Source: an uncultured Thioalkalispiraceae bacterium (GTDB lineage Bacteria > Pseudomonadota > Gammaproteobacteria > UBA6429 > Thiohalophilaceae). Taken from it: a stretch of 35,286 nt of DNA. The translations under genes were made by a program, and so were the position numbers. Where the stretch lies: the NCBI GenBank assembly GCA_964472525.1, contig CAYYLL010000033.1, positions 1 through 35,286 of the forward strand, read 5' to 3'. Positions 21,578 through 32,139 of this stretch are shown in pieces. The notes beneath the pieces are model-generated. The model made no database searches and was not told where the DNA came from. It saw nothing but the letters and a program-made list of their open reading frames with translations. Numbering within the stretch: position 1 is the stretch's first letter; each line of letters starts with the position of its first letter.

Positions 21578-21654
21578 GCCCCGGTAGCTCAGTTGGATAG
21601 AGCAGCCGCCTCCTAAGCGACAGGTCGGACGTTCGAATCGTCTTCGGGGCACCA
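21578..21654 (+). tRNA. tRNA-Arg (anticodon CCU), 77 nt with encoded CCA
   Basis: Cloverleaf read by eye: acceptor GCCCCGG/TCGGGGC, D-arm GCTC-AGTTGGATA-GAGC, anticodon arm GCCGC-CTCCTAA-GCGAC, T-arm GGACG-TTCGAAT-CGTCT, ACCA. Confidence 0.85.
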
Positions 21655-23088: not shown

Positions 23089-23419
23089 TGGGTCTATTTA
23101 TGATTGTAAATTTATCCTTGAGTATAACAGCTATTCTCTAAAGGAAAAGTGAAAATGCTACTGTAAGTAAATGATTAACTTATATTTATCGATTTTAGCA
23201 AATAAGTCAAACTAAAACATAAGAGTATAAAATCATCTGCTATTATCGAGTATTTATAATGGCCTGATATTTAAACTGATTATCGCCACCAATAAAGACT
23301 ATTTACAAATCACATCATAATAATAGAGTCTTTTGCATAGTATCAAACAACCAAGTACCACTCGACAAAACCTTAAAGTTAAAATTCCGGCATAAAAAAC
23401 CTGTGTTAACGGGTTTAAT

Positions 23420-23894
23420 TACTTAAATGGTGCGCCTAGAGCGATTTAAACACCCGACCGCCTAGTGCGTAGTCGTGCGGTCTAGGTAAATCCTGTCAAC
23501 TTTGTCACAAGTATTTACTCTAATAGACTGAATTTAAAGATTTTTATCATGATTGGATAATTATTGATAATTTCACTCCCCCTCCCCCTACACAACATCA
23601 AATATGGTTTGTCATGACACATATTTGCCATACGGGATTTCTATTACTTCTAGGATTTTGTGGTGGGCTTGAACGCAGGAGGCTCTGAGGTCAAGTGTAG
23701 CATCGCTTCGCTAGTGAAGGTTTTTACACTTTTCTAATTCGAAACAAACTCTATTAGCAGTTTATAATCGTAAATTGTATGTTTTACTGTTCGAGCTGTT
23801 CTAACTCACCTCATGTTTCAGCGTGTGAATATTTTAGCCCTTCCATTTCATCTGGGTCGAGTGGCGTAGCACCTTTGGGACAATTAAATTCCAC
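23420..23894 (-). pseudogene. decayed Fic-family 'mobile mystery protein B' remnant, read in three frames broken by stops
   Basis: Directly after mystery-protein-A stop: frame 1 ...KGATPLDPDEMEGLKYSHAET*, then shifted GELEQLEQ*, then NIQFTIINC*. No intact Fic HPFx(D/E)GNGR motif found downstream. Confidence 0.4.
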
Positions 23895-24359
23895 TTACTT
23901 TTCTTCCCATAAATCTCGTGGCATATCTCTAATCAAACGTTCCGTTTCAAACTCGATTTGCCGTTGTAACTGTTCGCTTGATAACTGCTGCGCTTCTAAT
24001 TTCATTTGTACATCTGTCTTATTCACCAGATTTTCCGCTTTTTGCTTTGCTCTATCACGAATCATACTGTCAACCGATTTTCTGGGCACCAGAGCGTAAA
24101 CTAGCTCGCAATCAAGCGCTTTAGCAACACGCCGTAGCTGCTTGAGTGTAATACGATCTTCCATTTCCATACGTTCCATTTGAGAAGCCTGTGACTTACT
24201 CACACCCAAGCGCGTAGCCAATTGAGGGCTACTCATCCCCAATGCTGTACGCAAAGTACGGATCCAACCCTCTTTCGGTGATTTTATTCTTTTAATATCA
24301 ATAAGTTGGTCAATTTTAGACCGATACTGATCTCTAATAATCTGCTTAATCATAATCAA
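23895..24359 (-). CDS. HTH (XRE-family) 'mobile mystery protein A'-type regulator
   Basis: HTH RTLRTALGMSSPQLATRLGVSKSQASQMER, size and architecture of the A partner of A/B (HTH/Fic) mobile modules. Confidence 0.6.
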   Translation of the reverse strand: MIMIKQIIRDQYRSKIDQLIDIKRIKSPKEGWIRTLRTALGMSSPQLATRLGVSKSQASQMERMEMEDRITLKQLRRVAKALDCELVYALVPRKSVDSMIRDRAKQKAENLVNKTDVQMKLEAQQLSSEQLQRQIEFETERLIRDMPRDLWEEK

Positions 24360-24425
24360 TTACCACATATATATGGCCAAGTAATCTATACACTACCATA
24401 TATATATAGCCTAAAATAATATAAT

Positions 24426-24446
24426 AGGCAATATTTATATTGCCTT
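24426..24446. promoter_or_regulatory. perfect palindrome AGGCAATAT-T-ATATTGCCT (9-bp arms) in promoter region of the HTH gene; candidate operator
   Basis: Seen directly; plus second inverted repeat ATATATATGG...CCATATATAT at 24366-24408 and hairpin GCCCAAGT-N7-ACTTGGGC at 24476-24498. Confidence 0.35.
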
Positions 24447-24575
24447 TATTTAAGGCTATTGTTAGTTTCCCTATGCCCAAGTACAGTGCACTTGGGCTTA
24501 TCAGACATATAAATTCTACCAATTACACGTATTTCAGCTTACCCTCCTTTAAATAGTATTTTTAGCTAAAATAGT

Positions 24576-24746
24576 ATGAGCATGATTAAACAACAAAATT
24601 TTGCTAAACATGATGCAGAAAAACAGCCCTTACGTGAACGTGATATTGCGGCTATAAAAAATGGTGCATCTGCAAAAGAAATGCGTAATCGTAACTTTAT
24701 GTTCTCAGGTTTAGACATGTCAAAAGTGGTTGCTATCGCTCCCTAA
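24576..24746 (+). CDS. small hypothetical ORF (57 aa, MSMIKQQNFAKHDAEKQPL...)
   Basis: Below ORF-table cutoff; weak SD; no similarity recognised. Confidence 0.2.
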   Translation: MSMIKQQNFAKHDAEKQPLRERDIAAIKNGASAKEMRNRNFMFSGLDMSKVVAIAP

Positions 24747-24791
24747 TGGGCATCGCTTCTCACATCCCAAATAAATCTCCATTTTCAATTA

Positions 24792-25177
24792 AGATCAATA
24801 ATGCTTATTCATCTTCTTATTGGATTGATGAACACGTTTGATAGCTTCTGCCCATAATGGACTACACAAAGGTCTAAATTTAGCTCGACTACTATCACTC
24901 CATTTAATTTCCATTACCTCGATAATTAAGGCATCTGGATATTTTTTCCAGTCCTCGCGTTTGCTATTTTTTATTTCAACATCAATCTCATTCCATTCCA
25001 GATGCGCACTCTTCTCTATAGAATTTAGTTTTCGGCGAAAAGTACGATTAACCCTTCACTTTCTTTTGCGCTATGCTTTACGTGAGCTTTTATCATTTTC
25101 TCCATACACATTTTTACGCTGATGGGTGTAATCTCTAATCTTATTTTCTTGTGGTGTTATTACTCTTTCCTGATTCA
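24792..25177 (-). pseudogene. frameshifted gene relic; ATG start (25175-25177) then three consecutive reading frames each closed by a stop
   Basis: Frames read MNQERVITPQENKIRDYTHQRKNVYGENDKSSRKA* / ...HSAKESEGLIVLFAEN* / ...LEWNEIDVEIKNSKREDWKKYPDALIIEVMEIKWSDSSRAKFRPLCSPLWAEAIKRVHQSNKKMNKHY*. Confidence 0.25.
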
Positions 25178-25189
25178 TAATTTTTCTAC

Positions 25190-25229
25190 TCGAAAACTTA
25201 AAAATAAAGCGGGGTAAAACTACCCCGCT
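25190..25229 (-). terminator. rho-independent terminator (9-bp GC-rich stem AGCGGGGTA/TACCCCGCT, loop AAAC, then T-run on minus strand) downstream of the mini-RtcB gene
   Basis: Seen directly. Confidence 0.6.
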
Positions 25230-25252
25230 CTATACGCACAATTAAGTCACGA

Positions 25253-25621
25253 TTACCCTCTAACACAAACAACACCTTCAGTTTGTGCCACCATATCATC
25301 AACACTAAAATGACGTTTTGCTTTGCCACGCCTCATTTTACGTCCAGCACCGTGTGAGCAAGAACAAAATGATTCCTTGTTCCCTTTTCCTTGCACAATA
25401 AAAGACTTGGCACCCATACTTCCTGGAATAATACCAATCTCATCAACACCAGCACGAATCGCCCCTTTACCAAAATACACATCTGGCATTGCCGCCACAT
25501 GGCTATAAATAATCGGCAATTGAGATATATTCAACAATTGTTGATACGCTTCATGCTCAATATCATCGGTATAGATTTTTACTGGCACTTTACCTTTTGT
25601 TATCTGTTTTAAAATTAGCAT
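25253..25621 (-). CDS. mini-RtcB: RtcB RNA-ligase derivative (122 aa) with two in-frame internal deletions; probably non-catalytic relic
   Basis: N-term KGKVPVKIYTDD...LPIIYSHVAAMPDVYFGKG matches RtcB N-terminus; then jumps to GIIPGSMGAKSFIVQGKGNKESFCSCSHGAGRKMRRGKAKRHFSVDD (GMP-histidine motif) and ends VVCVRG like RtcB C-terminus; the metal-binding core is missing. Confidence 0.7.
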   Translation of the reverse strand: MLILKQITKGKVPVKIYTDDIEHEAYQQLLNISQLPIIYSHVAAMPDVYFGKGAIRAGVDEIGIIPGSMGAKSFIVQGKGNKESFCSCSHGAGRKMRRGKAKRHFSVDDMVAQTEGVVCVRG

Positions 25622-25918: not shown

Positions 25919-26872
25919 TTAAATTACTAAATTAAACCATTGAGGATCTGGTATTTTCTTATACAAACGGCAAAAGCCTTTATCTGACTGTAAAAATTCA
26001 GGTGCCTCAGATGTTTTCTTAAAACAAAAACGCTTTGGCAATTTTTCATAAAGCGATACAGGTGGTTTGGTATATGAAATACGCTTCACATTCGCACCTG
26101 TTTTCGAACTATGATAATGAATATTCGTAATACCTATTTCATTACGAATAAAATCTATCGTTGCTGCAAGCATCGCTTCAGACCAGATCGCTTTATACGG
26201 ACTCATAACATACTTACAGTAATGAATAACATCATCAATACTGCCATCTACACTCCACCATCTAACATGATTTGACTTCTTCTTTTTAGCTCGTTCAGCA
26301 TCACGTAATAAATCAGTACCTTCTCTTACCCAATCACTTTGTATTTCTTCAATTAATGCTTCATTGGTATCAAAGTCGATATCAATCCTTGACCAAGCCA
26401 AAGTTTCTCTAAAATATTCATTACTTTTTTGTTCATAAACCGGATGACAACTAGGATTAAGTAATTGTTCATATCCAGGCTTCACTAATTTTTTATAAAA
26501 AGCATCGTGTTTATTTGAGAAATTCAGTTGCAAAACAAGGTTAAAACCTTTTCTGGAAGTTTGCCCCCACGATGTATCTTTATAATCCCATTTTGATACG
26601 GTTAGAACAAAATCATGAATTTCACTTGGCCATATGTAATCGATAAAGTCCTTAGATACTTTCCCACCTCTGAATTTATCCAAATTCTCTTTGACAAAAG
26701 GTTTTTCCAACAAACCAGAAAATATTGATTTCTTAATATCAGAAATACGGTTTAGATCTTTATCTGTCATATATCCTAATAACATTAAAGCGTATCGGTC
26801 TTTAAAGTAACGAAATACCGTACGTTCTTTAGGCATGCAGTCTATAATTTCATTAACTAATTGTAGTTCCAC
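25919..26872 (-). CDS. hypothetical protein (317 aa), no recognisable domain
   Basis: ORF only. Confidence 0.5.
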   Translation of the reverse strand: MELQLVNEIIDCMPKERTVFRYFKDRYALMLLGYMTDKDLNRISDIKKSIFSGLLEKPFVKENLDKFRGGKVSKDFIDYIWPSEIHDFVLTVSKWDYKDTSWGQTSRKGFNLVLQLNFSNKHDAFYKKLVKPGYEQLLNPSCHPVYEQKSNEYFRETLAWSRIDIDFDTNEALIEEIQSDWVREGTDLLRDAERAKKKKSNHVRWWSVDGSIDDVIHYCKYVMSPYKAIWSEAMLAATIDFIRNEIGITNIHYHSSKTGANVKRISYTKPPVSLYEKLPKRFCFKKTSEAPEFLQSDKGFCRLYKKIPDPQWFNLVI

Positions 26873-26999: not shown

Positions 27000-28148
27000 T
27001 TATTCATGTAAATTGATTCTTACAGTATCTTTTACAATACCGTCTAAACCGCCGAACACAGTAAGCTTGTCTACTTTCTCTGTTATTTTTTCAAGAATTT
27101 CCAGTTCTTTCAAACGCATTAGCGTTGGGTTGTCGTCCATTAAACGCGCAGTGTTCAATAAAGAACGTGTTGCTGCTGTTTCTTCACGACGTTTGATAAC
27201 ATTTGCCTGTGCAATTTTTTCAGCCTCAACCACCTGGTTAAGGATGTCTTTCATATCACCAGGTAAAATGACATCTTTTACACCCACGCCACGTACCTTA
27301 ATACCAAACTCAGAAACCTTATCTTTAACTGTTTCAAAGATTACTTTGTCCAGTTCATCTTTATTCCCTAATAAAGTATCTAAAGTACGTGTACCAACGG
27401 CTTGACGTAATGCAAACTGTAATTCACGATAAACATAATCAGTAACATTCACTAACTTGTTACGCACAGCAATCGGATCAGTGACCTGATACTGAGCAGA
27501 CAAGTTCACACGCAGGCTAACTTTATCCTTAGTCAAAATTTCTTGACCTTGAACTTCCATCACTTGCATACGTAACTCAACTTGTTCCACTTTTACATTA
27601 CGGTTGAACTTCCAGTAAGCGTACAAACCAGGTTTTAATTTTTGCACAAGCTCACCATCAACAATCAGCAAACCAATATGGTTATCGGCCACTTCACTAA
27701 TTGTTAGGTAGTTAACAACTTCACGTGGCATTGCATCCATACGTGCATGTGCGATTAACCCAACAACGGCTTTTGGCACCATAAAGTCTTGTTCAATGTT
27801 TAGTGTTTCTACTTTTACATCAATCAAACCTTTCCAATACAACTGACGTGTAGCAGGTAGCAATACACCATTGAGTTTTCCATTCTTGTAAATCAGGCCC
27901 ACTTCATACTCACCCAACTCAATAAGCTGGAAGTATTTATCAACCAGTTCACGATTTTCTTTTACAAGAACATCGTTATAAGGATGATTAAACTCTGGTA
28001 CTGTCAAGTTATGAACCTCAACCGCTACACGACCAAATAGATCGAATCCACGGTAGATACCCGGTTCAAGAATCTTGACGACAGAACGATCTTTTAAATA
28101 AACACCACGTTCATGTTGTGCGATCACAATACGTTTTAATCCGAACAT
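27000..28148 (-). CDS. SPFH/band-7 (stomatin/HflC-like) domain protein without N-terminal transmembrane anchor
   Basis: C-terminal SPFH-like helical region (KDVILPGDMKDILNQVVEAEKIAQANVIKRREETAATRSLLNTARLM...LMRLKELEILEKI); start set at second ATG (MFGLKR...) which has GGAGAAGG SD. Confidence 0.55.
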   Translation of the reverse strand: MFGLKRIVIAQHERGVYLKDRSVVKILEPGIYRGFDLFGRVAVEVHNLTVPEFNHPYNDVLVKENRELVDKYFQLIELGEYEVGLIYKNGKLNGVLLPATRQLYWKGLIDVKVETLNIEQDFMVPKAVVGLIAHARMDAMPREVVNYLTISEVADNHIGLLIVDGELVQKLKPGLYAYWKFNRNVKVEQVELRMQVMEVQGQEILTKDKVSLRVNLSAQYQVTDPIAVRNKLVNVTDYVYRELQFALRQAVGTRTLDTLLGNKDELDKVIFETVKDKVSEFGIKVRGVGVKDVILPGDMKDILNQVVEAEKIAQANVIKRREETAATRSLLNTARLMDDNPTLMRLKELEILEKITEKVDKLTVFGGLDGIVKDTVRINLHE

Positions 28149-28503
28149 CACACCTTCTCCTTTCATTTAATTAAATATGAGAAATGCTCCACATCCAAAT
28201 TGCGGGACCATACTTGGTACCATCGTGTGTATTAAGCTGCTCCCAAGCTTGCTACGAATCTCACCCATAACACTAAAACGTTATTTATGAGATTCGCTCT
28301 CACTTGTTCGTAACTTAAACAGACCACAGTACATGTTGTATGTCGCAAGCAATCTTTATGCTGTGACATCGAATACACACTACAAAAATCGTTTGTGCAT
28401 TCAACTCACGGGAACATTTCCCGTTGCGATGAGTTACCCCATCAAATAAGCGGATTCGAACCGCAGGCTTTCGCCTTTTCCAAGAACAGCGTTAAAGGCT
28501 GTG

Positions 28504-28577
28504 TGCAAAAGAGAGGGAATTGAACCCTCGACAAATAGATTATCAGTCTATCGCTCTACCCAACTGAGCTATCTTCG
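28504..28577 (-). tRNA. tRNA-Ile(GAU)-like gene or pseudogene, no encoded CCA, bulged acceptor stem
   Basis: Minus strand: D-arm GCTC-AGTTGGGTA-GAGC, anticodon arm ATAGA-CTGATAA-TCTAT, T-arm GAGGG-TTCAATT-CCCTC are perfect; acceptor GCGAAGA/TCTTTTGC needs one bulge. Confidence 0.45.
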
Positions 28578-28726
28578 CTGGTGTTATTGAGTATTTAGTT
28601 GTTTTGTATACACCTTGCTATTTAAGCTTGAGTGCACAGGTCAGAGCTTAGAATCTGAACCGTTAAACAATTAAACGTATCTCAAAAACCTCTGAACGAC
28701 ATGTTTTAAACACATCATTACAATTC

Positions 28727-28759
28727 ATTTAAAAAGGTGGTGAGCGTTATGCCCACCAC
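28727..28759 (-). terminator. rho-independent terminator after HNH gene (GTGGTG-N11-CACCAC then CTTTTTA on minus strand)
   Basis: Seen directly. Confidence 0.5.
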
Positions 28760-28774
28760 AACATATGCAACATC

Positions 28775-29347
28775 TTATTGCGATATTGCATGACGGCGTT
28801 CTTTAGGGCATTGCACTTTCAAGAACGCCATTTGATCCGTCAATATGTGACGGTTATATAAAATTAACCACTCTGCATGGTTAGGTGCATAAGGCACCGC
28901 ATGTAAGTGCATTGTTGATTCACTCAACAATTTATCCGCTTTACGCTGATTACACACACGGCAAGCCGTTACCACATTTGTCCATACATCTTTCCCACCA
29001 CGTGATACAGGAATTACATGGTCACGTGTTAAATGGCGATCAACTAACATCGTTAAACAATACATACACGTATGTTGATCACGTCTAAACAATGCACGGT
29101 TAGTCAGCGATGAAACTTTTCCGCATGGTGCACGGCCAACTTCACCTTTTGCTGCCACGATAGAATGCACATCCATATAGGAACGTGTATTGCTCACACG
29201 GTTAATTCCACCGTAATAGCGCAATGGTTTATCACCTAATGTCCAGGCAACTTGATCTTTAGCATAAAGCAGTACCGCTTCTTGCCAATTAATCCATCCC
29301 ATTGGTTGCCCGCTGATATTGGTTCTTAAAATCAATGCGCTCATCAT
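28775..29347 (-). CDS. HNH endonuclease (zinc-finger HNH, homing-endonuclease-like)
   Basis: CxxC...DHVIPVSRGGKDVWTNVVTACRVCNQRK HNH/CxxC signature. Confidence 0.75.
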   Translation of the reverse strand: MMSALILRTNISGQPMGWINWQEAVLLYAKDQVAWTLGDKPLRYYGGINRVSNTRSYMDVHSIVAAKGEVGRAPCGKVSSLTNRALFRRDQHTCMYCLTMLVDRHLTRDHVIPVSRGGKDVWTNVVTACRVCNQRKADKLLSESTMHLHAVPYAPNHAEWLILYNRHILTDQMAFLKVQCPKERRHAISQ

Positions 29348-29401
29348 CTTATCTCCTACATTTCATCCATATTGCTTTAACAATTTGAAAGTATTTATAT
29401 T

Positions 29402-29465
29402 TGGTGCGCCCGGTCAGATGACCCAACAATAAGTTTAGTGCGTTTGCCAATTACGCCACGAGCGC
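29402..29465 (-). other. 64-nt tRNA-like relic (acceptor GCGCTCG/CGGGCGC + ACCA, D-arm GCGT-N9-ACGC, short hairpin GGTCA-TCT-TGACC; no proper anticodon arm)
   Basis: Seen directly; too short for a full cloverleaf. Confidence 0.3.
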
Positions 29466-29507
29466 TTTATTTACTATTTTCACTTACAACCAATTATCTT
29501 TTGAAAT

Positions 29508-29581
29508 TGGCTGAGGATCATGGATTTGAACCAGGACTACGAGTGTCAAAGACTCGCGTGCTACCATTACACTAATCCCCA
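29508..29581 (-). tRNA. tRNA-Gln (anticodon UUG), 74 nt, encoded GCCA end
   Basis: Acceptor TGGGGAT/ATCCTCA, D-arm GTGT-AATGGTA-GCAC, anticodon arm CGAGT-CTTTGAC-ACTCG, T-arm CCTGG-TTCAAAT-CCATG (one C.U mismatch), discriminator G. Confidence 0.65.
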
Positions 29582-29737
29582 ATATTTTATTGGTACGCCC
29601 CCGGTCGCAACGCACTTCCCTGTTCTCTCGCGACATTCGTATGTCCTATACATCAGATTCGAACTCAGAAAACACTGCGGCCATTATTTAGCCAGCACCA
29701 GCGACGTATGCCAGTTCCGTCATAGGCGCATAAAAAT

Positions 29738-29836
29738 TGGAGCACCTGTGAGGCCGTTTTTGTATGTTTAAATACATTGGCAACCTCAATCTTTCACCTT
29801 CGTAGGGTGATGCTCTTGCATTTAAGCTACAGGCAC
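29738..29836 (-). tRNA. tRNA-Arg(ACG)-like, 99 nt, with a 30-nt insertion (own hairpin) in the T-loop; probable pseudo- or aberrant tRNA
   Basis: Acceptor GTGCCTG/CAGGTGC + T + CCA, D-arm GCT-N10-AGC, anticodon arm TCACC-CTACGAA-GGTGA (perfect), T-stem TGAGG...CCTCA enclosing TTGCCAATGTATTTAAACATACAAAAACGG. Confidence 0.45.
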
Positions 29837-29845
29837 ATTATTAAT

Positions 29846-29920
29846 TGGTCGGTCGCAAGAGACTCTAACTCTTACCTTCTGGATTAAAAGTCCAGTGTGC
29901 TTTCATTACACCAGCGGCCG
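29846..29920 (-). tRNA. tRNA-Lys (anticodon UUU), 75 nt, atypical core (no G18G19, T-loop TTAGAGT lacks C56, one C.A acceptor mismatch)
   Basis: Acceptor CGGCCGC/GCGACCG, D-arm GTGT-AATGAAA-GCAC, anticodon arm CTGGA-CTTTTAA-TCCAG, T-arm AAGAG-TTAGAGT-CTCTT, A + CCA. Confidence 0.6.
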
Positions 29921-29984
29921 GAATTATTTTCTTAATACGTTTTAACTTAATGACAGCAATAAATTGTTTCTTTGATAGCTTCAT
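29865..29984 (-). CDS. 39-codon ORF (MKLSKKQFIAVIKLKRIKKIIPAAGVMKAHWTFNPEGKS) with strong SD GAGGAGGG; 3' half is co-linear with tRNA-Lys
   Basis: SD 5 nt upstream of ATG; ORF may be fortuitous or a relic. Confidence 0.2.
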   Translation of the reverse strand: MKLSKKQFIAVIKLKRIKKIIPAAGVMKAHWTFNPEGKS

Positions 29985-30015
29985 TTAATCCCTCCTCTGT
30001 TTAATAAACATTAAT

Positions 30016-30183
30016 TTAGGCATGCGGTCGAATTAAATGTAATAAATCATCTAGTTTTGGATTATTACGATTCTCGATCCATGCATTTGCAAGTAACCAA
30101 CGTAAATTAGCTTGCGTTGGAACTGTTCTGTTCTCTGGCACATTGACTTGTTGAATGAGTCGTCTGTACTTGTTAATTTCAAT
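30016..30183 (-). CDS. 55-aa ORF in TTG frame (LEINKYRRLIQQVNVPENRTVPTQANLRWLLANAWIENRNNPKLDDLLHLIRPHA) preceded by SD AAGAGGAG and a 6-codon ATG mini-ORF (MNNIGN*) in the -1 frame; probably frameshifted small gene
   Basis: Seen directly; strong SD belongs to the ATG at 30191-30193, whose frame stops after 6 codons. Confidence 0.2.
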   Translation of the reverse strand: MEINKYRRLIQQVNVPENRTVPTQANLRWLLANAWIENRNNPKLDDLLHLIRPHA

Positions 30184-30212
30184 ATTGTTCATAACGAACT
30201 CCTCTTTAGTTT

Positions 30213-30289
30213 GGGGCGATCAAACGGGTTCGAACCGATATCCACATAATTCACAGTTATGGACTTTACCTATTAAGCTATAATCGCCA
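30213..30289 (-). tRNA. tRNA-His (anticodon GUG) with G-1 and discriminator C73, encoded CCA
   Basis: G(-1)+acceptor GCGATTA/TGATCGC, D-arm GCTT-AATAGGTA-AAGT, anticodon arm CATAA-CTGTGAA-TTATG (perfect), T-arm ATCGG-TTCGAAC-CCGTT (1 mismatch), C-CCA; G-1:C73 is the His identity hallmark. Confidence 0.75.
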
Positions 30290-30407
30290 TTATTAAAAAA
30301 TTGGTCTGGATGTCTGGCTGCTCATGTGCATCCATGCACCCGCAGCATTTGTACATCCCTGTACATCATTTAAACTTGCGATATCTCCGTTCACTTTAAT
30401 ATAGTAC

Positions 30408-30443
30408 TGGCGGAGAACTCTAATCAGACTGAGCTATACCCAG
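30408..30443 (-). other. tRNA 5'-half fragment (acceptor + D-arm: CTGGGTATAGCTCAGTCTGATTAGAGTTC) followed by long hairpin; no matching 3' half
   Basis: GCTCAGT D-arm motif; no T-arm or acceptor complement downstream; adjacent palindromes TGTACA-GGGA-TGTACA and GTGCAT-GG-ATGCAC. Confidence 0.3.
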
Positions 30444-30466
30444 ATAAATCGAATACAATGGTGTTA

Positions 30467-30631
30467 TTAAATAGCACTCATTAATGCCATTAAAGAACAC
30501 CACTCTTTCTTCAATTTTTGCTTCTCAATTCTTCGTTTTGCTTTATCCGACTTTTCATGCACACCACCTTTAAACATCAATGGATGATTATGAAAAGGAT
30601 TTCGTGGTTTACTATCTTTTAATTTACTCAT
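30467..30631 (-). CDS. small basic protein (54 aa, MSKLKDSKPRNPFHNHPLMFKGGVHEKSDKAKRRIEKQKLKKEWCSLMALMSAI)
   Basis: Internal ATG of the 102-aa table ORF with SD GGAGAAAAG; longer version would overlap tRNA-Asn. Confidence 0.4.
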   Translation of the reverse strand: MSKLKDSKPRNPFHNHPLMFKGGVHEKSDKAKRRIEKQKLKKEWCSLMALMSAI

Positions 30632-30651
30632 CGCTTTTCTCCTATATAAAT

Positions 30652-30726
30652 TGGCTCCTAGAGTCAGACTCGAACTGACATACAACTCCTTAACAGGGAG
30701 CCCACCTACCAATAGTGCATCTAGGA
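30652..30726 (-). tRNA. tRNA-Asn (anticodon GUU), 75 nt, encoded CCA
   Basis: Acceptor TCCTAGA/TCTAGGA (perfect), D-arm CACT-ATTGGTA-GGTG, anticodon arm GCTCC-CTGTTAA-GGAGT, T-arm GTCAG-TTCGAGT-CTGAC (perfect), G + CCA. Confidence 0.8.
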
Positions 30727-30854
30727 ATAATATGTAAGTTGTTATACGAATCGGCTTCCCACAACCGATACCCATAAGGTTTCCCCCGAAGGTTTTGCTT
30801 TACTTACCTTAATGTTGCGTAGGTAGTTACGCGAATAAACAACAAAACAGGCTC

Positions 30855-31013
30855 AAAACCCAACCAAGTGCTACCACACTTTCGTATAACAACTTGCACA
30901 CAATTACATATTTCTAAACAACACTTGGGTTTACATAAGTGCCAGTAAAATGAAAAACTGGCACTAAAAAACCCAACCAAGTGTTACCACACTTTCGTAT
31001 AACAACTTGCACA
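30855..31013. repeat. two direct copies (30855-30900 and 30967-31013, one mismatch) of a ~47-bp element AAAACCCAACCAAGTG(C/T)TACCACACTTTCGTATAACAACTTGCACA; partial inverted copy at 30736-30750 next to tRNA-Asn
   Basis: Seen directly; each copy followed about 40-90 bp later by hairpin AGTGCCAGT-N10/11-ACTGGCACT (30938-30965 and 31106-31134). Confidence 0.6.
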
Positions 31014-31076
31014 TCTATTTATGCTCATTCGTTTTCTTACAAATCCATTTATTACATACATGCCTTTTTCAAAGAC

Positions 31077-31102
31077 GAAACCGAATAAACCTATTCGGTT
31101 TC
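31077..31102. repeat. perfect 11-bp-arm hairpin GAAACCGAATA-AACC-TATTCGGTTTC
   Basis: Seen directly. Confidence 0.5.
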
Positions 31103-31140
31103 ATAAGTGCCAGTAAGATAAAAAAACTGGCACTAAAAAA

Positions 31141-31176
31141 CCCCGTTAGTTATTCACCTAACGGGGTTCTTGTTTA
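31141..31176. terminator. bidirectional rho-independent terminator (CCCCGTTAG-N8-CTAACGGGG flanked by A-run upstream and TTCTTGTTT downstream); a second 9-bp GC stem follows at 31182-31212
   Basis: Seen directly; T-tracts on both strands. Confidence 0.55.
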
Positions 31177-31230
31177 GTTCCCGCGAAAGGCATGTTATGT
31201 CAGCCTTTCGCGATAGTGATTTGCAAAAAG

Positions 31231-31413
31231 CTATGTCATACCGAGGGTGTCCTGGTATGAGTTTGTATGTTCATTTGTTGTCAAAGATGTTTTTTGTTCA
31301 GTAGACACAATTGCTCGCATCAATTTCAGTGAGGCACACGGATCTATATCCCCTGCCACCAATAAATTGGGTCGAATATTTAAAGTTAAAATTGTGTTTC
31401 CAAATAAATTCAT
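31231..31413 (-). CDS. small hypothetical protein (60 aa, MNLFGNTILTLNIRPNLLVAGDIDPCASLK...) divergent from the HTH-XRE gene
   Basis: Start moved to internal ATG with strong SD GGAGGT (5 nt spacing); upstream extension lacks SD. Confidence 0.45.
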   Translation of the reverse strand: MNLFGNTILTLNIRPNLLVAGDIDPCASLKLMRAIVSTEQKTSLTTNEHTNSYQDTLGMT

Positions 31414-31542
31414 GTTTACCTCCAAATGAATAGCGCAATTATAGTTATGAATTTCAAGAATGCAAGCTTTATTTTCAAGTTTCTTGTACAATATTTTATA
31501 GCATTACACACACTTATATTGAGTTTAAATTTAGGATTAAAA

Positions 31543-32139
31543 ATGGCAGACAAAAAAAATCCAACTGCAATACAAATTGGCCAACGTATTAAGCAAGCAC
31601 GAAAGATGGCAGGGTTTAATACCGCCGCACAATTGCTAGATAAGATTAAAGATTGGGGAACTGGGCGATTAGGGAATTACGAAGCAGGTATATCACTTCC
31701 CTCCCCCGATGATGTAAAGATAATATCAAAGGTAACAGGCTCATCACCCTGCTGGATAATGTTTGGTTTAGGCCCAATCCGTTCTACAGGCAGAGATTTA
31801 CAAGCAATACGACACCAAAATTTCATTTATATATTTGATAGCTGTAAAACAAAGAAAGGATCTATTACTAAATTCTTAAATGCTATTGGATTATCCAGAA
31901 AAAAAATTGAAGAACATATCAACAACCCTTTCCTAACAATTCCTGATCGTACAGCACATAAATGTGAAAAATTTTACAAGAAACCTGTTAACTGGTTAGA
32001 TGAACAACATGTAGAATCCGATCCTATCTGCGCTGCCTTCCCTGAAGATATGCGCCATGTTATGGAAATTTACTCTTGCTTAACAAAAGAACAACGAATA
32101 ATGTTTCTAAAAATGGCTGATGTCATTAGCTCATCGTAA
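31543..32139 (+). CDS. HTH-XRE family DNA-binding protein (phage-repressor-like N-terminal HTH, unknown C-terminal domain)
   Basis: HTH IQIGQRIKQARKMAGFNTAAQLLDKI; start set at MADKKNP (AGGA upstream) rather than the 39-aa hydrophobic extension. Confidence 0.6.
   Translation: MADKKNPTAIQIGQRIKQARKMAGFNTAAQLLDKIKDWGTGRLGNYEAGISLPSPDDVKIISKVTGSSPCWIMFGLGPIRSTGRDLQAIRHQNFIYIFDSCKTKKGSITKFLNAIGLSRKKIEEHINNPFLTIPDRTAHKCEKFYKKPVNWLDEQHVESDPICAAFPEDMRHVMEIYSCLTKEQRIMFLKMADVISSS

What the first reader, a model, noticed from the sequence alone, without database searches (positions are those of the whole stretch)
28430..30726. Phage-style tRNA array with degenerate members and tRNA fragments
All elements lie on the minus strand. 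Ile(GAU)-like (28504-28577) has no CCA and a bulged acceptor. A T-arm fragment GCGG-TTCGAAT-CCGC sits at 28448-28470. A 64-nt tRNA-like relic lies at 29402-29465. Gln(UUG) is at 29508-29581. Arg(ACG)-like with a giant T-loop is at 29738-29836. Lys(UUU) is at 29846-29920, His(GUG) with G-1 at 30213-30289, a 5'-half fragment at 30408-30443, and Asn(GUU) at 30652-30726. His and Asn look canonical; the others carry mismatches or missing tertiary-interaction bases. The dense mixture of intact, variant and fragmentary tRNAs with an HNH endonuclease gene in the middle indicates an array evolving by duplication, homing-endonuclease-driven recombination and decay. This matches tRNA islands of virulent phages more than chromosomal tRNA operons. 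No rRNA genes are present.
Basis: seen in the sequence. Interest (0 to 1): 0.65.

Follow-up and report, generated by a model that had tools for sequence, protein, structure and literature searches.

The report
Decaying horizontally acquired tRNA gene array
This is a shrunken, partly broken copy of a mobile cluster of spare tRNA genes with a nuclease and RNA-repair genes that sits in a bacterial chromosome, and comparison with fuller copies shows how its tRNA genes were broken and reveals two undescribed structured RNAs.

Summary
Five minus-strand tRNAs (Asn, His, Lys, Gln and an Ile-like one) score 55-63 bits against Rfam tRNA, so they are not chance matches. The window is a bacterial chromosome with a flagellar operon, not a phage.

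The region is a reduced copy of an island found in at least 13 metagenomic or MAG loci. Its order is HTH regulator, tRNA array, HNH, structured RNA, SPFH, unknown protein, RtcB. Relatives carry 16-25 tRNAs, and one carries GOLLD.

The "degenerate" members are orthologues of normal tRNAs, not duplicates:
- The 142-nt unit is tRNA-Pro broken by a hairpin insert at the T arm.
- The 64-nt relic is tRNA-Leu(UAA) with a 22-nt deletion.
- The Arg unit carries a hairpin in its T-loop.

RtcB is also a remnant.

The "Ile-like tRNA" and the "T-arm fragment" are domains of one conserved RNA of about 390 nt that always precedes SPFH. A second RNA of about 170 nt lies upstream of tRNA-Asn. Covariation supports both, and neither is in Rfam.

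This is a long tRNA array with an embedded HNH, a known kind also found in phages and plasmids. Its function as a spare tRNA supply is inferred from the literature.

The parts
31426..32139 (+). Divergently oriented HTH (XRE-type) protein at the head of the island; candidate regulator
   Evidence: Pfam HTH_3. Conserved at 47-89% aa identity at the same position in L001, L007, L011, L012, L013, L019 and L022. The regulatory role is inferred.
30728..30904 (-). Conserved structured RNA of about 170 nt just upstream of tRNA-Asn, closed by a 19-bp stem (AAGUUGUUAUACGAA / UUCGUAUAACAACUU). A partial copy of its 5' half lies at 31013-30940.
   Evidence: Alignment A2 of 7 loci has 56 pairs, 23 with compensatory changes. 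93.6% of cells are paired against 36-47% when partners are slid, and 0 of 500 shuffles reach the observed values. nhmmer finds it in 9-11 array loci. No Rfam match.
30652..30726 (-). tRNA-Asn(GUU), canonical, CCA encoded
   Evidence: ARAGORN. Rfam 55.0 bits. The A7-U66 pair becomes G7-C66 in L007/L008.
30467..30631 (-). Conserved small ORF (54 aa) inside the array, function unknown
   Evidence: tblastn 55-87% aa identity at the same array position in 9 loci. No Pfam or NCBIfam match.
30302..30443 (-). Unit a: pseudogene derived from tRNA-Pro(UGG). A hairpin insert (30367-30317) takes the place of the 3' strand of the T stem. The anticodon loop (30415-30385) carries 14 extra nt found only in the window.
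   Evidence: Alignment A4 with five intact tRNA-Pro genes. L007/L008 keep the loop UUUGGAU and carry the same insert. Identity to L007/L008 is 88-89%, below most of the canonical tRNAs.
30212..30288 (-). tRNA-His(GUG) with encoded G-1 and C73-CCA
   Evidence: ARAGORN. Rfam 60.0 bits. G-1 read from the sequence.
30016..30192 (-). Conserved small ORF (58 aa) after tRNA-His, function unknown
   Evidence: tblastn 69-98% aa identity at the same position in 10 loci. No family match.
29846..29920 (-). tRNA-Lys(UUU), with a C4·A69 mismatch, no G18-G19 and T-loop UUAGAGU
   Evidence: ARAGORN. Rfam 57.2 bits. 95-97% identical in L007/L008.
29738..29836 (-). Unit b: tRNA-Arg(ACG) with a 30-nt T-loop (29783-29754) that holds a hairpin resembling by eye the first hairpin of the inserts in units a and c. 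Status uncertain: variant tRNA or young pseudogene.
   Evidence: Rfam 22.3 bits. ARAGORN relaxed mode. The orthologue L001 4628-4703 is a normal Arg tRNA with T-loop UUGAAGU. The insert is shared with L007/L008, whose anticodon is GCG, also Arg. Identity is 94-95%, as for the canonical tRNAs.
29591..29731 (-). It has a 12-nt insertion at the anticodon (29690-29679) and a 51-nt hairpin insert at the 3' side of the T arm (29654-29604).
   Evidence: L007 7685-7761 and L008 1066-1142 are intact tRNA-Leu(tag) at the same place, and both insertions are window-specific.
29508..29581 (-). tRNA-Gln(UUG), canonical
   Evidence: ARAGORN. Rfam 57.2 bits.
29402..29465 (-). Unit d: relic of tRNA-Leu(UAA). 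A 22-nt deletion removed the variable arm and the 5' half of the T arm, and the anticodon loop is mutated.
   Evidence: L007 7859-7944 and L008 1264-1349 are intact tRNA-Leu(taa) at the same place. Identity is 86%, the lowest of all units.
28775..29347 (-). HNH endonuclease (190 aa) at the 3' end of the array
   Evidence: Pfam HNH_5 3e-16. 57-93% identical in the loci that carry the array. 40-42% identical homologues lie at the end of tRNA arrays in a jumbo phage and a megaplasmid.
28737..28759 (-). Terminator-like hairpin plus T run just after the HNH stop codon
   Evidence: Consensus scan only.
28358..28732 (-). Conserved structured RNA of about 390 nt that always lies directly upstream of the SPFH gene.
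   Evidence: Alignment A3 of 10 loci has 90 pairs, 41 with compensatory changes. 94.6% of cells are paired against 36-48% when slid, and 0 of 500 shuffles reach the observed values. nhmmer finds it in 13 loci, next to SPFH even where gene order differs. The tRNA domain has anticodon GAU, AAU, CAU, AUA or UAA, and CCA in 4 of 10. Only the tRNA part matches Rfam.
27000..28166 (-). SPFH/Band 7 (slipin-like) protein
   Evidence: Pfam Band_7 7e-26. Conserved in the islands.
25919..26872 (-). Conserved 317-aa protein with no family assignment
   Evidence: 39-55% aa identity in 7 islands. No Pfam, NCBIfam or PADLOC match.
25253..25621 (-). RtcB RNA ligase remnant (122 aa)
   Evidence: It matches residues 1-54 and 289-356 of the 398-aa L001 RtcB, so about 235 internal residues and the C-terminus are missing. 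RtcB is full length in L001, L009, L011, L012, L020 and L022, and runs to the end of the fetched sequence in L013 and L019.

Best explanation
**What it is.** The region is a reduced, decaying copy of a horizontally transferred long tRNA gene array cassette lodged in a gammaproteobacterial chromosome. The intact cassette, seen in relatives, has this order:

1. a divergent HTH regulator
2. a leader RNA of about 170 nt
3. 16-25 co-oriented tRNA genes with encoded CCA and two small ORFs
4. an HNH endonuclease
5. a structured RNA of about 390 nt that embeds a tRNA-like domain
6. SPFH, a protein of unknown family, and the RNA ligase RtcB

**What remains in the window.** Four ordinary tRNAs survive (Asn, His, Lys, Gln), plus one Arg tRNA with an enlarged T-loop. 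Three genes are dead:
- tRNA-Pro and tRNA-Leu(UAG) were hit by small hairpin-rich repeat units at the T-loop/T-stem junction and by extra insertions in the anticodon loop.
- tRNA-Leu(UAA) lost 22 nt.

RtcB has an internal deletion.

**What is shown and what is inferred.**
- Shown: the synteny, the orthology of each broken unit, the lesions, and the two RNA structures.
- Inferred from work on Anabaena and mycobacteria: intact cassettes supply spare tRNAs and RNA repair when translation or tRNAs are attacked.
- Inferred: this copy is being lost because it is no longer selected.
- Inferred from behaviour in relatives: the inserts are DNA-level mobile palindromic elements.
For: **Context**
- Flagellar genes fill 246-21500.
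- The island is syntenic with L001 over window 32123-25311, and about 87% identical to L007/L008 over 30968-27052.
- The gene set is conserved in the array loci.
- Relatives carry 16-25 tRNAs in a common order.

**Lesions mapped against intact orthologues**
- Leu(UAG) and Leu(UAA) in L007/L008.
- Pro in five loci.
- Arg in L001.
- RtcB remnant.
- Broken units a, c and d are 86-90% identical to L007/L008. The canonical tRNAs are 91-99% identical.

**The inserts behave as mobile DNA**
- They are present or absent at orthologous sites.
- Copies about 94% identical sit in unrelated tRNA genes of one array.
- The 72-78-nt type occurs in both orientations, and in its own orientation follows TCGA in 7 of 8 tRNA-embedded copies and TTGA in the eighth.
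- Related hairpins occur outside tRNA genes in L085.

**The kind is known**
- Long arrays spread by HGT, with a conserved HNH and co-regulated rtcB (PMC8421152).
- The Anabaena TrcR regulon holds the tRNA operon, HNH, rtcB and a slipin gene (PMC10272220).
- Mycobacterial arrays carry one embedded HNH (PMC12803027, PMC6582537).
Against: - No expression or aminoacylation data exist for any unit.
- The window has only 5-6 tRNAs, below the 20-gene definition of an array unit. Membership therefore rests on synteny with larger relatives.
- Unit b is as conserved as the canonical tRNAs, so "decay" may not apply to it.
- No transposase was identified for the inserts.
- The shorter insert type found in the window does not follow the TCGA rule and was seen in only about six copies.
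- Island boundaries and the integration mechanism were not found: there is no integrase and no att-like repeat.
- Homology between SPFH and the unknown protein here and Anabaena alr0740/alr0739 was not tested.
Confidence: 0.8

Rival explanations
1. It is a phage tRNA island, either a prophage remnant or phage DNA. It is shaped by duplication and homing-endonuclease recombination.
For: - The HNH family is shared with tRNA islands of Salicola phage SCTP-2, and has hits in Ralstonia, Synechococcus and Gordonia phages.
- GOLLD, which is often phage-associated, lies in the L001 array (PMC12286853).
- Encoded CCA and odd tRNA features are common in phage tRNAs (own knowledge).
Against: - No phage structural, replication or integrase genes were seen among the window's ORFs.
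- Megablast against 50,697 phage records found nothing, and distant blastn found only single-tRNA matches.
- The HNH alignment recovered no array in IMG/VR.
- Relatives lie on 100-226 kb MAG or metagenome contigs.
- The aberrant units are orthologues of distinct tRNAs, not duplicates.
Confidence: 0.08
2. The interrupted units are functional split genes. The T-loop inserts are intervening sequences cut out of the precursor, and the halves are rejoined by the island's RtcB. This would be a bacterial protein-dependent tRNA splicing system.
For: - RtcB is linked to the array in the loci that extend far enough.
- In relatives, the 72-78-nt inserts sit at a fixed T-loop position and leave both T-stem strands, the acceptor stem and CCA intact.
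- L007/L008 unit a keeps a Pro anticodon loop.
- The L001 array lacks uninterrupted Trp and Glu genes, and the interrupted units would supply them.
Against: - Homologous inserts occur in both orientations, so the RNA would differ while the DNA hairpins stay the same.
- Related hairpins occur outside tRNA genes.
- In the window, the inserts remove or damage the 3' T-stem strand and come with anticodon-loop lesions.
- No splicing endonuclease or ribozyme was detected (Rfam; Pfam).
- The window's RtcB is broken.
Confidence: 0.08
3. The aberrant units are selected tRNA-like RNAs. They would act as decoys or sponges for tRNA-targeting nucleases, or as scaffolds that display hairpins, rather than being dead genes.
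For: - All keep a 6-7-bp acceptor stem and NCCA.
- Unit b is as conserved as the real tRNAs.
- One hairpin pair in unit a changes on both sides: GCUGC/GCAGC becomes GCCGC/GCGGC.
- A sponge role for array tRNAs has been proposed (PMC8421152).
Against: - Units c and d are intact tRNAs in the closest relatives, so the window's forms are recent lesions.
- Units a, c and d diverge more than most of the canonical tRNAs.
- Hairpin covariation is equally expected for DNA palindromes.
Confidence: 0.04

Closest known systems
[quoted passage not shown] PCC 7120 trn operon (PMC8421152, PMC10272220)
   Same: - Co-oriented, densely packed supernumerary tRNA genes that include pseudogenes.
- Patchy distribution consistent with HGT.
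- A conserved HNH endonuclease next to the array.
- A functional link to rtcB and a slipin gene, which are co-regulated in Anabaena and physically linked here.
   Different: - The window keeps only 5-6 tRNAs.
- The regulator is an HTH_3 protein, not the ribbon-helix-helix TrcR.
- SPFH, the unknown protein and RtcB are in the same cassette.
- Two conserved structured RNAs and T-loop hairpin inserts are present; the papers read here do not mention them.
- Sequence homology to the cyanobacterial genes was not tested.
Mycobacterial tRNA array units with embedded HNH and GOLLD RNA (PMC6582537, PMC12803027, PMC4758250)
   Same: - An array with a single embedded HNH.
- GOLLD lies inside the array of one relative (L001 2394-2879, 154.8 bits).
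- The arrays are redundant with host tRNAs and carry structural variants.
   Different: - The host phylum differs.
- The window itself has no GOLLD.
- The SPFH and RtcB linkage is not reported there: "RtcB" has 0 occurrences in PMC6582537, PMC12803027 and PMC4758250, and "SPFH" has 0 in PMC12803027, the only one of the three searched for it.
Phage tRNA islands with a homing endonuclease, e.g. the phage T4 tRNA region with SegB, or Salicola phage SCTP-2
   Same: - A nuclease gene lies within a tRNA cluster.
- The HNH is 42% identical to the SCTP-2 protein that sits among 9 tRNAs.
   Different: - The context is chromosomal, with no phage genes.
- SegB is a GIY-YIG enzyme (own knowledge).
- No phage shares the gene order or the accessory genes.
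REP/BIME palindromic units and IS200/IS605-type miniature elements
   Same: - Short hairpin modules combine in mosaics.
- The 72-78-nt type follows a fixed tetranucleotide (TCGA) in either orientation, with no obvious target duplication.
- Copies also occur in intergenic DNA.
   Different: - No Y1 or RAYT transposase was identified.
- The two end hairpins are unlike each other.
- Copies are strongly concentrated in array tRNA genes.
- The resemblance is a lead from memory, not a tested membership.
GOLLD and ROOL large RNAs that lie near, or embed, tRNAs (PMC5737381, PMC12286853)
   Same: - The RNA of about 390 nt is large and multi-helix.
- It lies in a tRNA array context and carries a tRNA within it.
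   Different: - It has no match to the GOLLD or ROOL models at E up to 10.
- It is about half their length.
- It is tied to the SPFH gene rather than to prophages.

Membership tests
tRNA array unit / L-array (PMC4758250, PMC8421152) | At least 20 tRNA genes at a density of 2 or more per kb | tested here: not met
   The window has 5 canonical tRNAs plus 1 variant in about 2.3 kb, so density is met and number is not. Syntenic relatives meet it: L001 has 20, L011 has 23 and L019 has 25. The window is therefore filed as a reduced derivative.
tRNA array unit / L-array | Genes co-oriented and close enough to be co-transcribed | tested here: met
   All units lie on the minus strand with spacers of 6-370 nt. 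The only terminator-like site follows HNH.
tRNA array unit / L-array | Conserved HNH endonuclease gene beside or inside the array | tested here: met
   HNH lies at 28775-29347. Its homologues lie at the 3' end of arrays in 13 loci, a phage and a plasmid.
tRNA array unit / L-array | Patchy, horizontally transferred distribution | tested here: inconclusive
   The island is about 87% identical in L007, but the flanks differ: host tRNA-Ser and tRNA-Arg there, other genes here. The taxonomy of most loci is unknown, and no integrase or att site was found.
tRNA array unit / L-array | Silent in normal growth, induced by translational stress | not testable with these tools
   Needs expression data.
Rfam tRNA (RF00005) | Score at or above the gathering threshold of 29 bits | tested here: met
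   Met by Ile-like, His, Gln, Lys and Asn at 55-63 bits. Not met by unit b (22.3 bits). Units a, c and d have no match.
Phage tRNA island | Located in a phage or prophage genome | tested here: not met
   The neighbours are flagellar and chemotaxis genes, and no phage-type genes were seen among the window's ORFs. No similar phage record or IMG/VR contig exists.
GOLLD RNA (RF02032), for the RNA of about 390 nt | Match to the GOLLD covariance model | tested here: not met
   No GOLLD match at E up to 10 in window 27800-31400, or at E up to 5 in L001 6700-7100. The true GOLLD at L001 2394-2879 scores 154.8 bits.
IS200/IS605-like or REP-like element, for the T-loop inserts | Insertion 3' of a fixed tetranucleotide, either orientation, no target duplication | tested here: inconclusive
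   Of the 8 tRNA-embedded copies of the 72-78-nt type, 7 follow TCGA and 1 follows TTGA. Four are forward and four reverse. The shorter type present in the window sits after T-loop position 60 instead. The sample is small.
IS200/IS605-like or REP-like element | Cognate Y1 or RAYT transposase in the genome | not tested
   Only about 8 kb of flank per locus was available, and the ORFs were not screened for PF01797.
Archaeal/eukaryal-type tRNA intron | Bulge-helix-bulge motif at the exon-intron junctions and a splicing endonuclease | not tested
   No BHB search was done. No endonuclease family was detected among the island proteins. Both insert orientations argue against an RNA-level signal.

The most novel reading that the evidence does not exclude
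It embeds a tRNA mimic and always precedes the SPFH gene of the SPFH/RtcB group. It would act as a cis-acting sensor that reports tRNA damage or processing status and switches on the repair genes. Separately, the T-loop inserts would be a new family of miniature mobile elements that home to the palindromic TCGA core of tRNA genes. The existence of the RNA class is well supported. The sensor function and the element's mechanism are conjecture.
Probability: 0.2. Interest if true: 0.8.

Novelty: new variant of a known kind. Interest (0 to 1): 0.55.

Why it matters
Long tRNA arrays with an embedded HNH are known but poorly understood. They are suspected of buffering translation against antibiotics, toxins or phage-defence nucleases.

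This family puts the array, HNH, a slipin-like protein and RtcB in one cassette. In Anabaena the same set is scattered but co-regulated. That strengthens the case that these genes work together.

The comparison also gives a dated series of decay, from 25 tRNAs down to 5. It gives a concrete way in which array tRNA genes are killed: hairpin elements aimed at the T-loop. It also yields two covariation-supported RNAs absent from Rfam, one of which embeds a tRNA-like domain next to RNA-repair genes. Each of these can be tested directly.

Tried and rejected
- **Phage origin.** Megablast and blastn of the array against INPHARED found nothing beyond single tRNAs. The HNH alignment against IMG/VR found no array.
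- **IMG/VR pattern scans.** Two scans for insert motifs returned zero hits. One scan for the 390-nt RNA returned two hits; both lie in loci with no tRNAs and no island proteins and look like coding sequence, so they were taken as chance.
- **Known RNA families for the aberrant units and conserved spacers.** Rfam at E up to 10 gave only tRNA and noise. Gathering-level scans of 10 more loci gave only tRNAs.
- **ARAGORN with introns allowed.** It did not rescue units a or c.
- **Integration at tRNA-Arg(CCU) 21578-21654.** No att-like direct repeat was found.
- **Defence-system assignment.** PADLOC gave only generic HNH hits.
- **Organism identity.** Exact-protein look-ups lead only to metagenome assemblies: Logan SRR14803397 and GCA_006243105.1.
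- **Literature on T-loop-targeted palindromic inserts in bacterial tRNA genes.** Nothing relevant was found in the searchable library.
- **T4 stable RNAs.** An early idea that the long CCA-ended units resemble the stable RNAs of the T4 tRNA cluster was dropped once intact orthologous tRNAs were found.

Full report

ARAGORN finds five minus-strand tRNAs between 28503 and 30726: Ile(gat), Gln(ttg), Lys(ttt), His(gtg) and Asn(gtt). It also finds a plus-strand tRNA-Arg(cct) at 21578-21654. Rfam's tRNA model scores the five at 55.0-63.4 bits, with E-values of 1e-10 to 1e-12.

- The Arg(ACG) unit at 29836-29738 scores 22.3 bits. It has a clean acceptor stem, D arm, anticodon arm and UCCA, and a 30-nt T-loop.
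- The 64-nt relic at 29465-29402 has a 7-bp acceptor stem plus ACCA and no T arm.
- The T-arm-like hairpin is at 28464-28450.
- The "5'-half fragment" is the start of a 142-nt unit (30443-30302) whose 3' end pairs with it and ends in ACCA.

**2. Context**

The window is a bacterial chromosome. Positions 246-21500 encode flagellar proteins such as FlgB-L together with CheR- and CheV-like proteins. The tRNA region lies in an island of roughly 21.7-32.2 kb.

The genes downstream of the array, on the same strand, are listed below.

| Gene | Coordinates |
|---|---|
| HNH | 28775-29347 |
| SPFH/Band 7 protein | 27000-28166 |
| 317-aa protein with no family | 25919-26872 |
| 122-aa RtcB remnant | 25253-25621 |

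The RtcB remnant matches residues 1-54 and 289-356 of a full-length relative.

No phage record resembles the region beyond single tRNAs.

**3. Relatives**

Searching genome and metagenome collections with the HNH protein gave 92 loci. Fourteen carry tRNA arrays upstream of the HNH.

The island is syntenic with L001, a Gammaproteobacteria MAG, from window 32123 to 25311. It is about 87% identical at the DNA level to L007 and L008 across 30968-27052.

tblastn shows the same gene set wherever the contig extends far enough: HTH, two small ORFs inside the array, HNH, SPFH, the unknown protein and RtcB.

Relatives hold 16-25 tRNAs in a shared order: Gly, Phe, Asn, Tyr, Ala, Asp, Glu, Ile, Pro, His, Val, Arg, Arg, Lys, Arg, Leu, Gln, Trp, Cys, Met, Leu, Ser, HNH. 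L001 also has a GOLLD RNA at 154.8 bits with a tRNA-Leu inside it. Ten other array loci have only tRNAs at Rfam gathering thresholds.

**4. What each aberrant unit is**

A three-way alignment with L007 and L008, and an alignment with five tRNA-Pro genes, settle this.

- **Unit a is tRNA-Pro(UGG).** In all three close relatives a 51-nt two-hairpin insert (window 30367-30317) follows the T-loop and takes the place of the 3' strand of the T stem. L007 and L008 still have the anticodon loop UUUGGAU. The window has 14 extra nt there.
- **Unit c is tRNA-Leu(UAG).** It is intact in L007 and L008. In the window it carries a 12-nt insertion at the anticodon (29690-29679) and a 51-nt insert of the same two-hairpin type (29654-29604).
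- **Unit d is tRNA-Leu(UAA).** It is intact in L007 and L008. In the window it has lost 22 nt and has a mutated anticodon loop.
- **Unit b corresponds to a normal tRNA-Arg in L001** with T-loop UUGAAGU. The window, L007 and L008 share a hairpin insert in the T-loop. The anticodon is ACG in the window and GCG in the relatives, both Arg.

Identity to L007/L008 varies by unit.

| Unit | Identity |
|---|---|
| Canonical tRNAs | 91-99% |
| Unit b | 94-95% |
| Unit a | 88-89% |
| Unit c | 90% |
| Unit d | 86% |

Units a, c and d therefore look like pseudogenes, and unit b is undecided. The samples are small, so these rates are only indicative.

**5. The inserts**

Relatives show the same phenomenon on a larger scale. 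In L001 the Glu, Trp, Lys and Leu(UAA) genes are interrupted. So are Asn in L018 and Leu(UAG) and a UCA-anticodon tRNA in L012. All keep their acceptor stems and CCA.

One insert type, 72-78 nt with three hairpins, has four forward copies placed after T-loop position 58. It has four reverse copies placed between positions 54 and 55. In its own orientation it follows TCGA in seven of these copies and TTGA in the eighth. Two L001 copies are about 94% identical although they sit in unrelated tRNA genes.

Hairpins of the form stem-CANGGAYG-stem are concentrated in the arrays, but longer ones also occur in intergenic DNA of loci without arrays, such as L085.

The following features point to small DNA-level mobile palindromic elements rather than RNA introns:
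- presence or absence at orthologous sites
- near-identical copies in different genes
- both orientations
- a fixed position beside a palindromic tetranucleotide
- occurrence outside tRNA genes

The resemblance to REP units or IS200/IS605-type miniature elements comes from my own knowledge and was not tested. No transposase was sought.

The two-hairpin type in the window sits after position 60 and does not follow the TCGA rule.

**6. The Ile-like tRNA and the T-arm fragment**

The whole interval between HNH and SPFH is conserved at the nucleotide level in all array loci.

RNAalifold on ten loci predicts 90 pairs, 41 of them with compensatory changes. On that structure 94.6% of cells pair, against 36-48% when partners are slid by 1-3 columns. 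Pairs with double changes number 41, against 6-12 in the slid controls. None of 500 shuffles reaches the observed values.

The RNA spans about 28732-28358. It contains the tRNA-like domain and the T-arm-like hairpin among 17 helices.

A profile finds it in 13 loci, always directly upstream of SPFH. This holds even in L011 and L022, where RtcB lies between HNH and the RNA.

The tRNA domain differs from the array tRNAs. Its anticodon varies (GAU, AAU, CAU, AUA, UAA), its acceptor stem is bulged, and CCA follows it in only 4 of 10 loci. I therefore read it as a structural tRNA-like module of a larger RNA.

A terminator-like hairpin separates it from HNH. Only the tRNA part matches Rfam.

**7. A second RNA**

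Window 30904-30728, just upstream of tRNA-Asn, is conserved in 9-11 loci. It folds into a structure of 56 pairs, 23 with compensatory changes. Of its cells 93.6% pair, against 36-47% when slid, and 0 of 500 shuffles reach the observed values. Rfam has no match.

**8. Comparison with what is known**

- Long arrays ("L-arrays") that spread horizontally, have a conserved HNH next to them and are co-regulated with rtcB were described in cyanobacteria (PMC8421152).
- The Anabaena TrcR regulon includes the tRNA operon, the HNH all8564, rtcB, and the pair alr0739 and alr0740 (a slipin) (PMC10272220). Here the same kinds of genes are physically linked.
- Mycobacterial array units have one embedded HNH and often GOLLD (PMC12803027, PMC6582537).
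- The window's HNH family also ends arrays in Salicola phage SCTP-2 and in the Methylibium PM1 megaplasmid, where 27 tRNAs lie directly upstream. Neither has the hairpin inserts.

The window fails the numerical definition of an array unit (20 genes). I file it as a reduced derivative on the strength of synteny.

**9. How it most likely works**

Shown:
- the cassette architecture
- the lesions
- the two RNA structures

Inferred from the literature:
- Intact cassettes are normally silent and provide spare tRNAs and RNA ligation when translation is impaired or tRNAs are cleaved.
- The HNH may help the cassette spread.

Inferred here:
- This copy has lost selection. It went from 20 or more genes to about nine units in the common ancestor with L007/L008. 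It then lost two Leu genes, a Thr-like unit and RtcB in the window's own lineage.

**10. Verdict**

The phage reading is only partly right.

The array is a new, decayed member of a known kind. Three features are not described in the literature I could search:
- two covariation-supported RNAs
- hairpin elements aimed at the T-loop
- physical linkage of SPFH and RtcB with the array

I rate it a new variant of a known kind, with interest 0.55.

Noticed in passing
window 28358-28732 (-): A conserved structured RNA of about 390 nt with an embedded tRNA-like domain. It always lies directly upstream of the SPFH gene and is absent from Rfam. Of its 90 predicted pairs, 41 show compensatory changes.
   Followed up: yes
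window 30728-30904 (-); partial copy 30940-31013: A conserved structured RNA of about 170 nt closed by a 19-bp stem, just upstream of tRNA-Asn in 9-11 array loci. It has no Rfam match. Its 5' half is duplicated 113 nt upstream in the window.
   Followed up: yes
window 30467-30631 (-) and 30016-30192 (-): Two small ORFs (54 and 58 aa) inside the array are conserved at the protein level (55-98% identity) at the same positions in about 10 loci. They have no family assignment.
   Followed up: partly
window 25253-25621 (-): The RtcB gene carries an in-frame internal deletion of about 235 residues, apparently between two GKGA motifs, and lacks its C-terminus. Relatives have a full-length RtcB.
   Followed up: yes
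L001 2394-2879: A GOLLD RNA (154.8 bits) with tRNA-Leu(tag) embedded lies inside the array of a Gammaproteobacteria MAG. It is absent from the window and from ten other array loci.
   Followed up: partly
L011 7585-7657; L015 931; L012 7469-7620: The arrays include a tRNA with anticodon UCA, which reads UGA. In L012 its apparent counterpart, judged by eye from position and loop sequence, is interrupted by a reverse-oriented T-loop insert.
   Followed up: no
L001 3223-3516: A 294-nt CCA-ended unit has tRNA-like acceptor and D arms. It carries about 170 extra nt in the anticodon/variable region and a T-loop insert. Its identity is unknown.
   Followed up: no
L085 8650-9140: Downstream of an HNH homologue in a locus without tRNAs there are three long hairpins with the same CAGGGATG loop. 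One is a full three-hairpin element. The repeat family is therefore not confined to tRNA genes.
   Followed up: partly
window 25919-26872 (-); L001 8510-9952: A conserved 317-aa protein between SPFH and RtcB matches no Pfam, NCBIfam or PADLOC family. L001 alone has an extra 480-aa PcfJ-like protein inserted before it.
   Followed up: partly
window 23100-25250: This stretch between the FHA-domain gene and the RtcB remnant has only short ORFs, including an HTH_3 protein at 23895-24359. That suggests further gene decay in the island.
   Followed up: no
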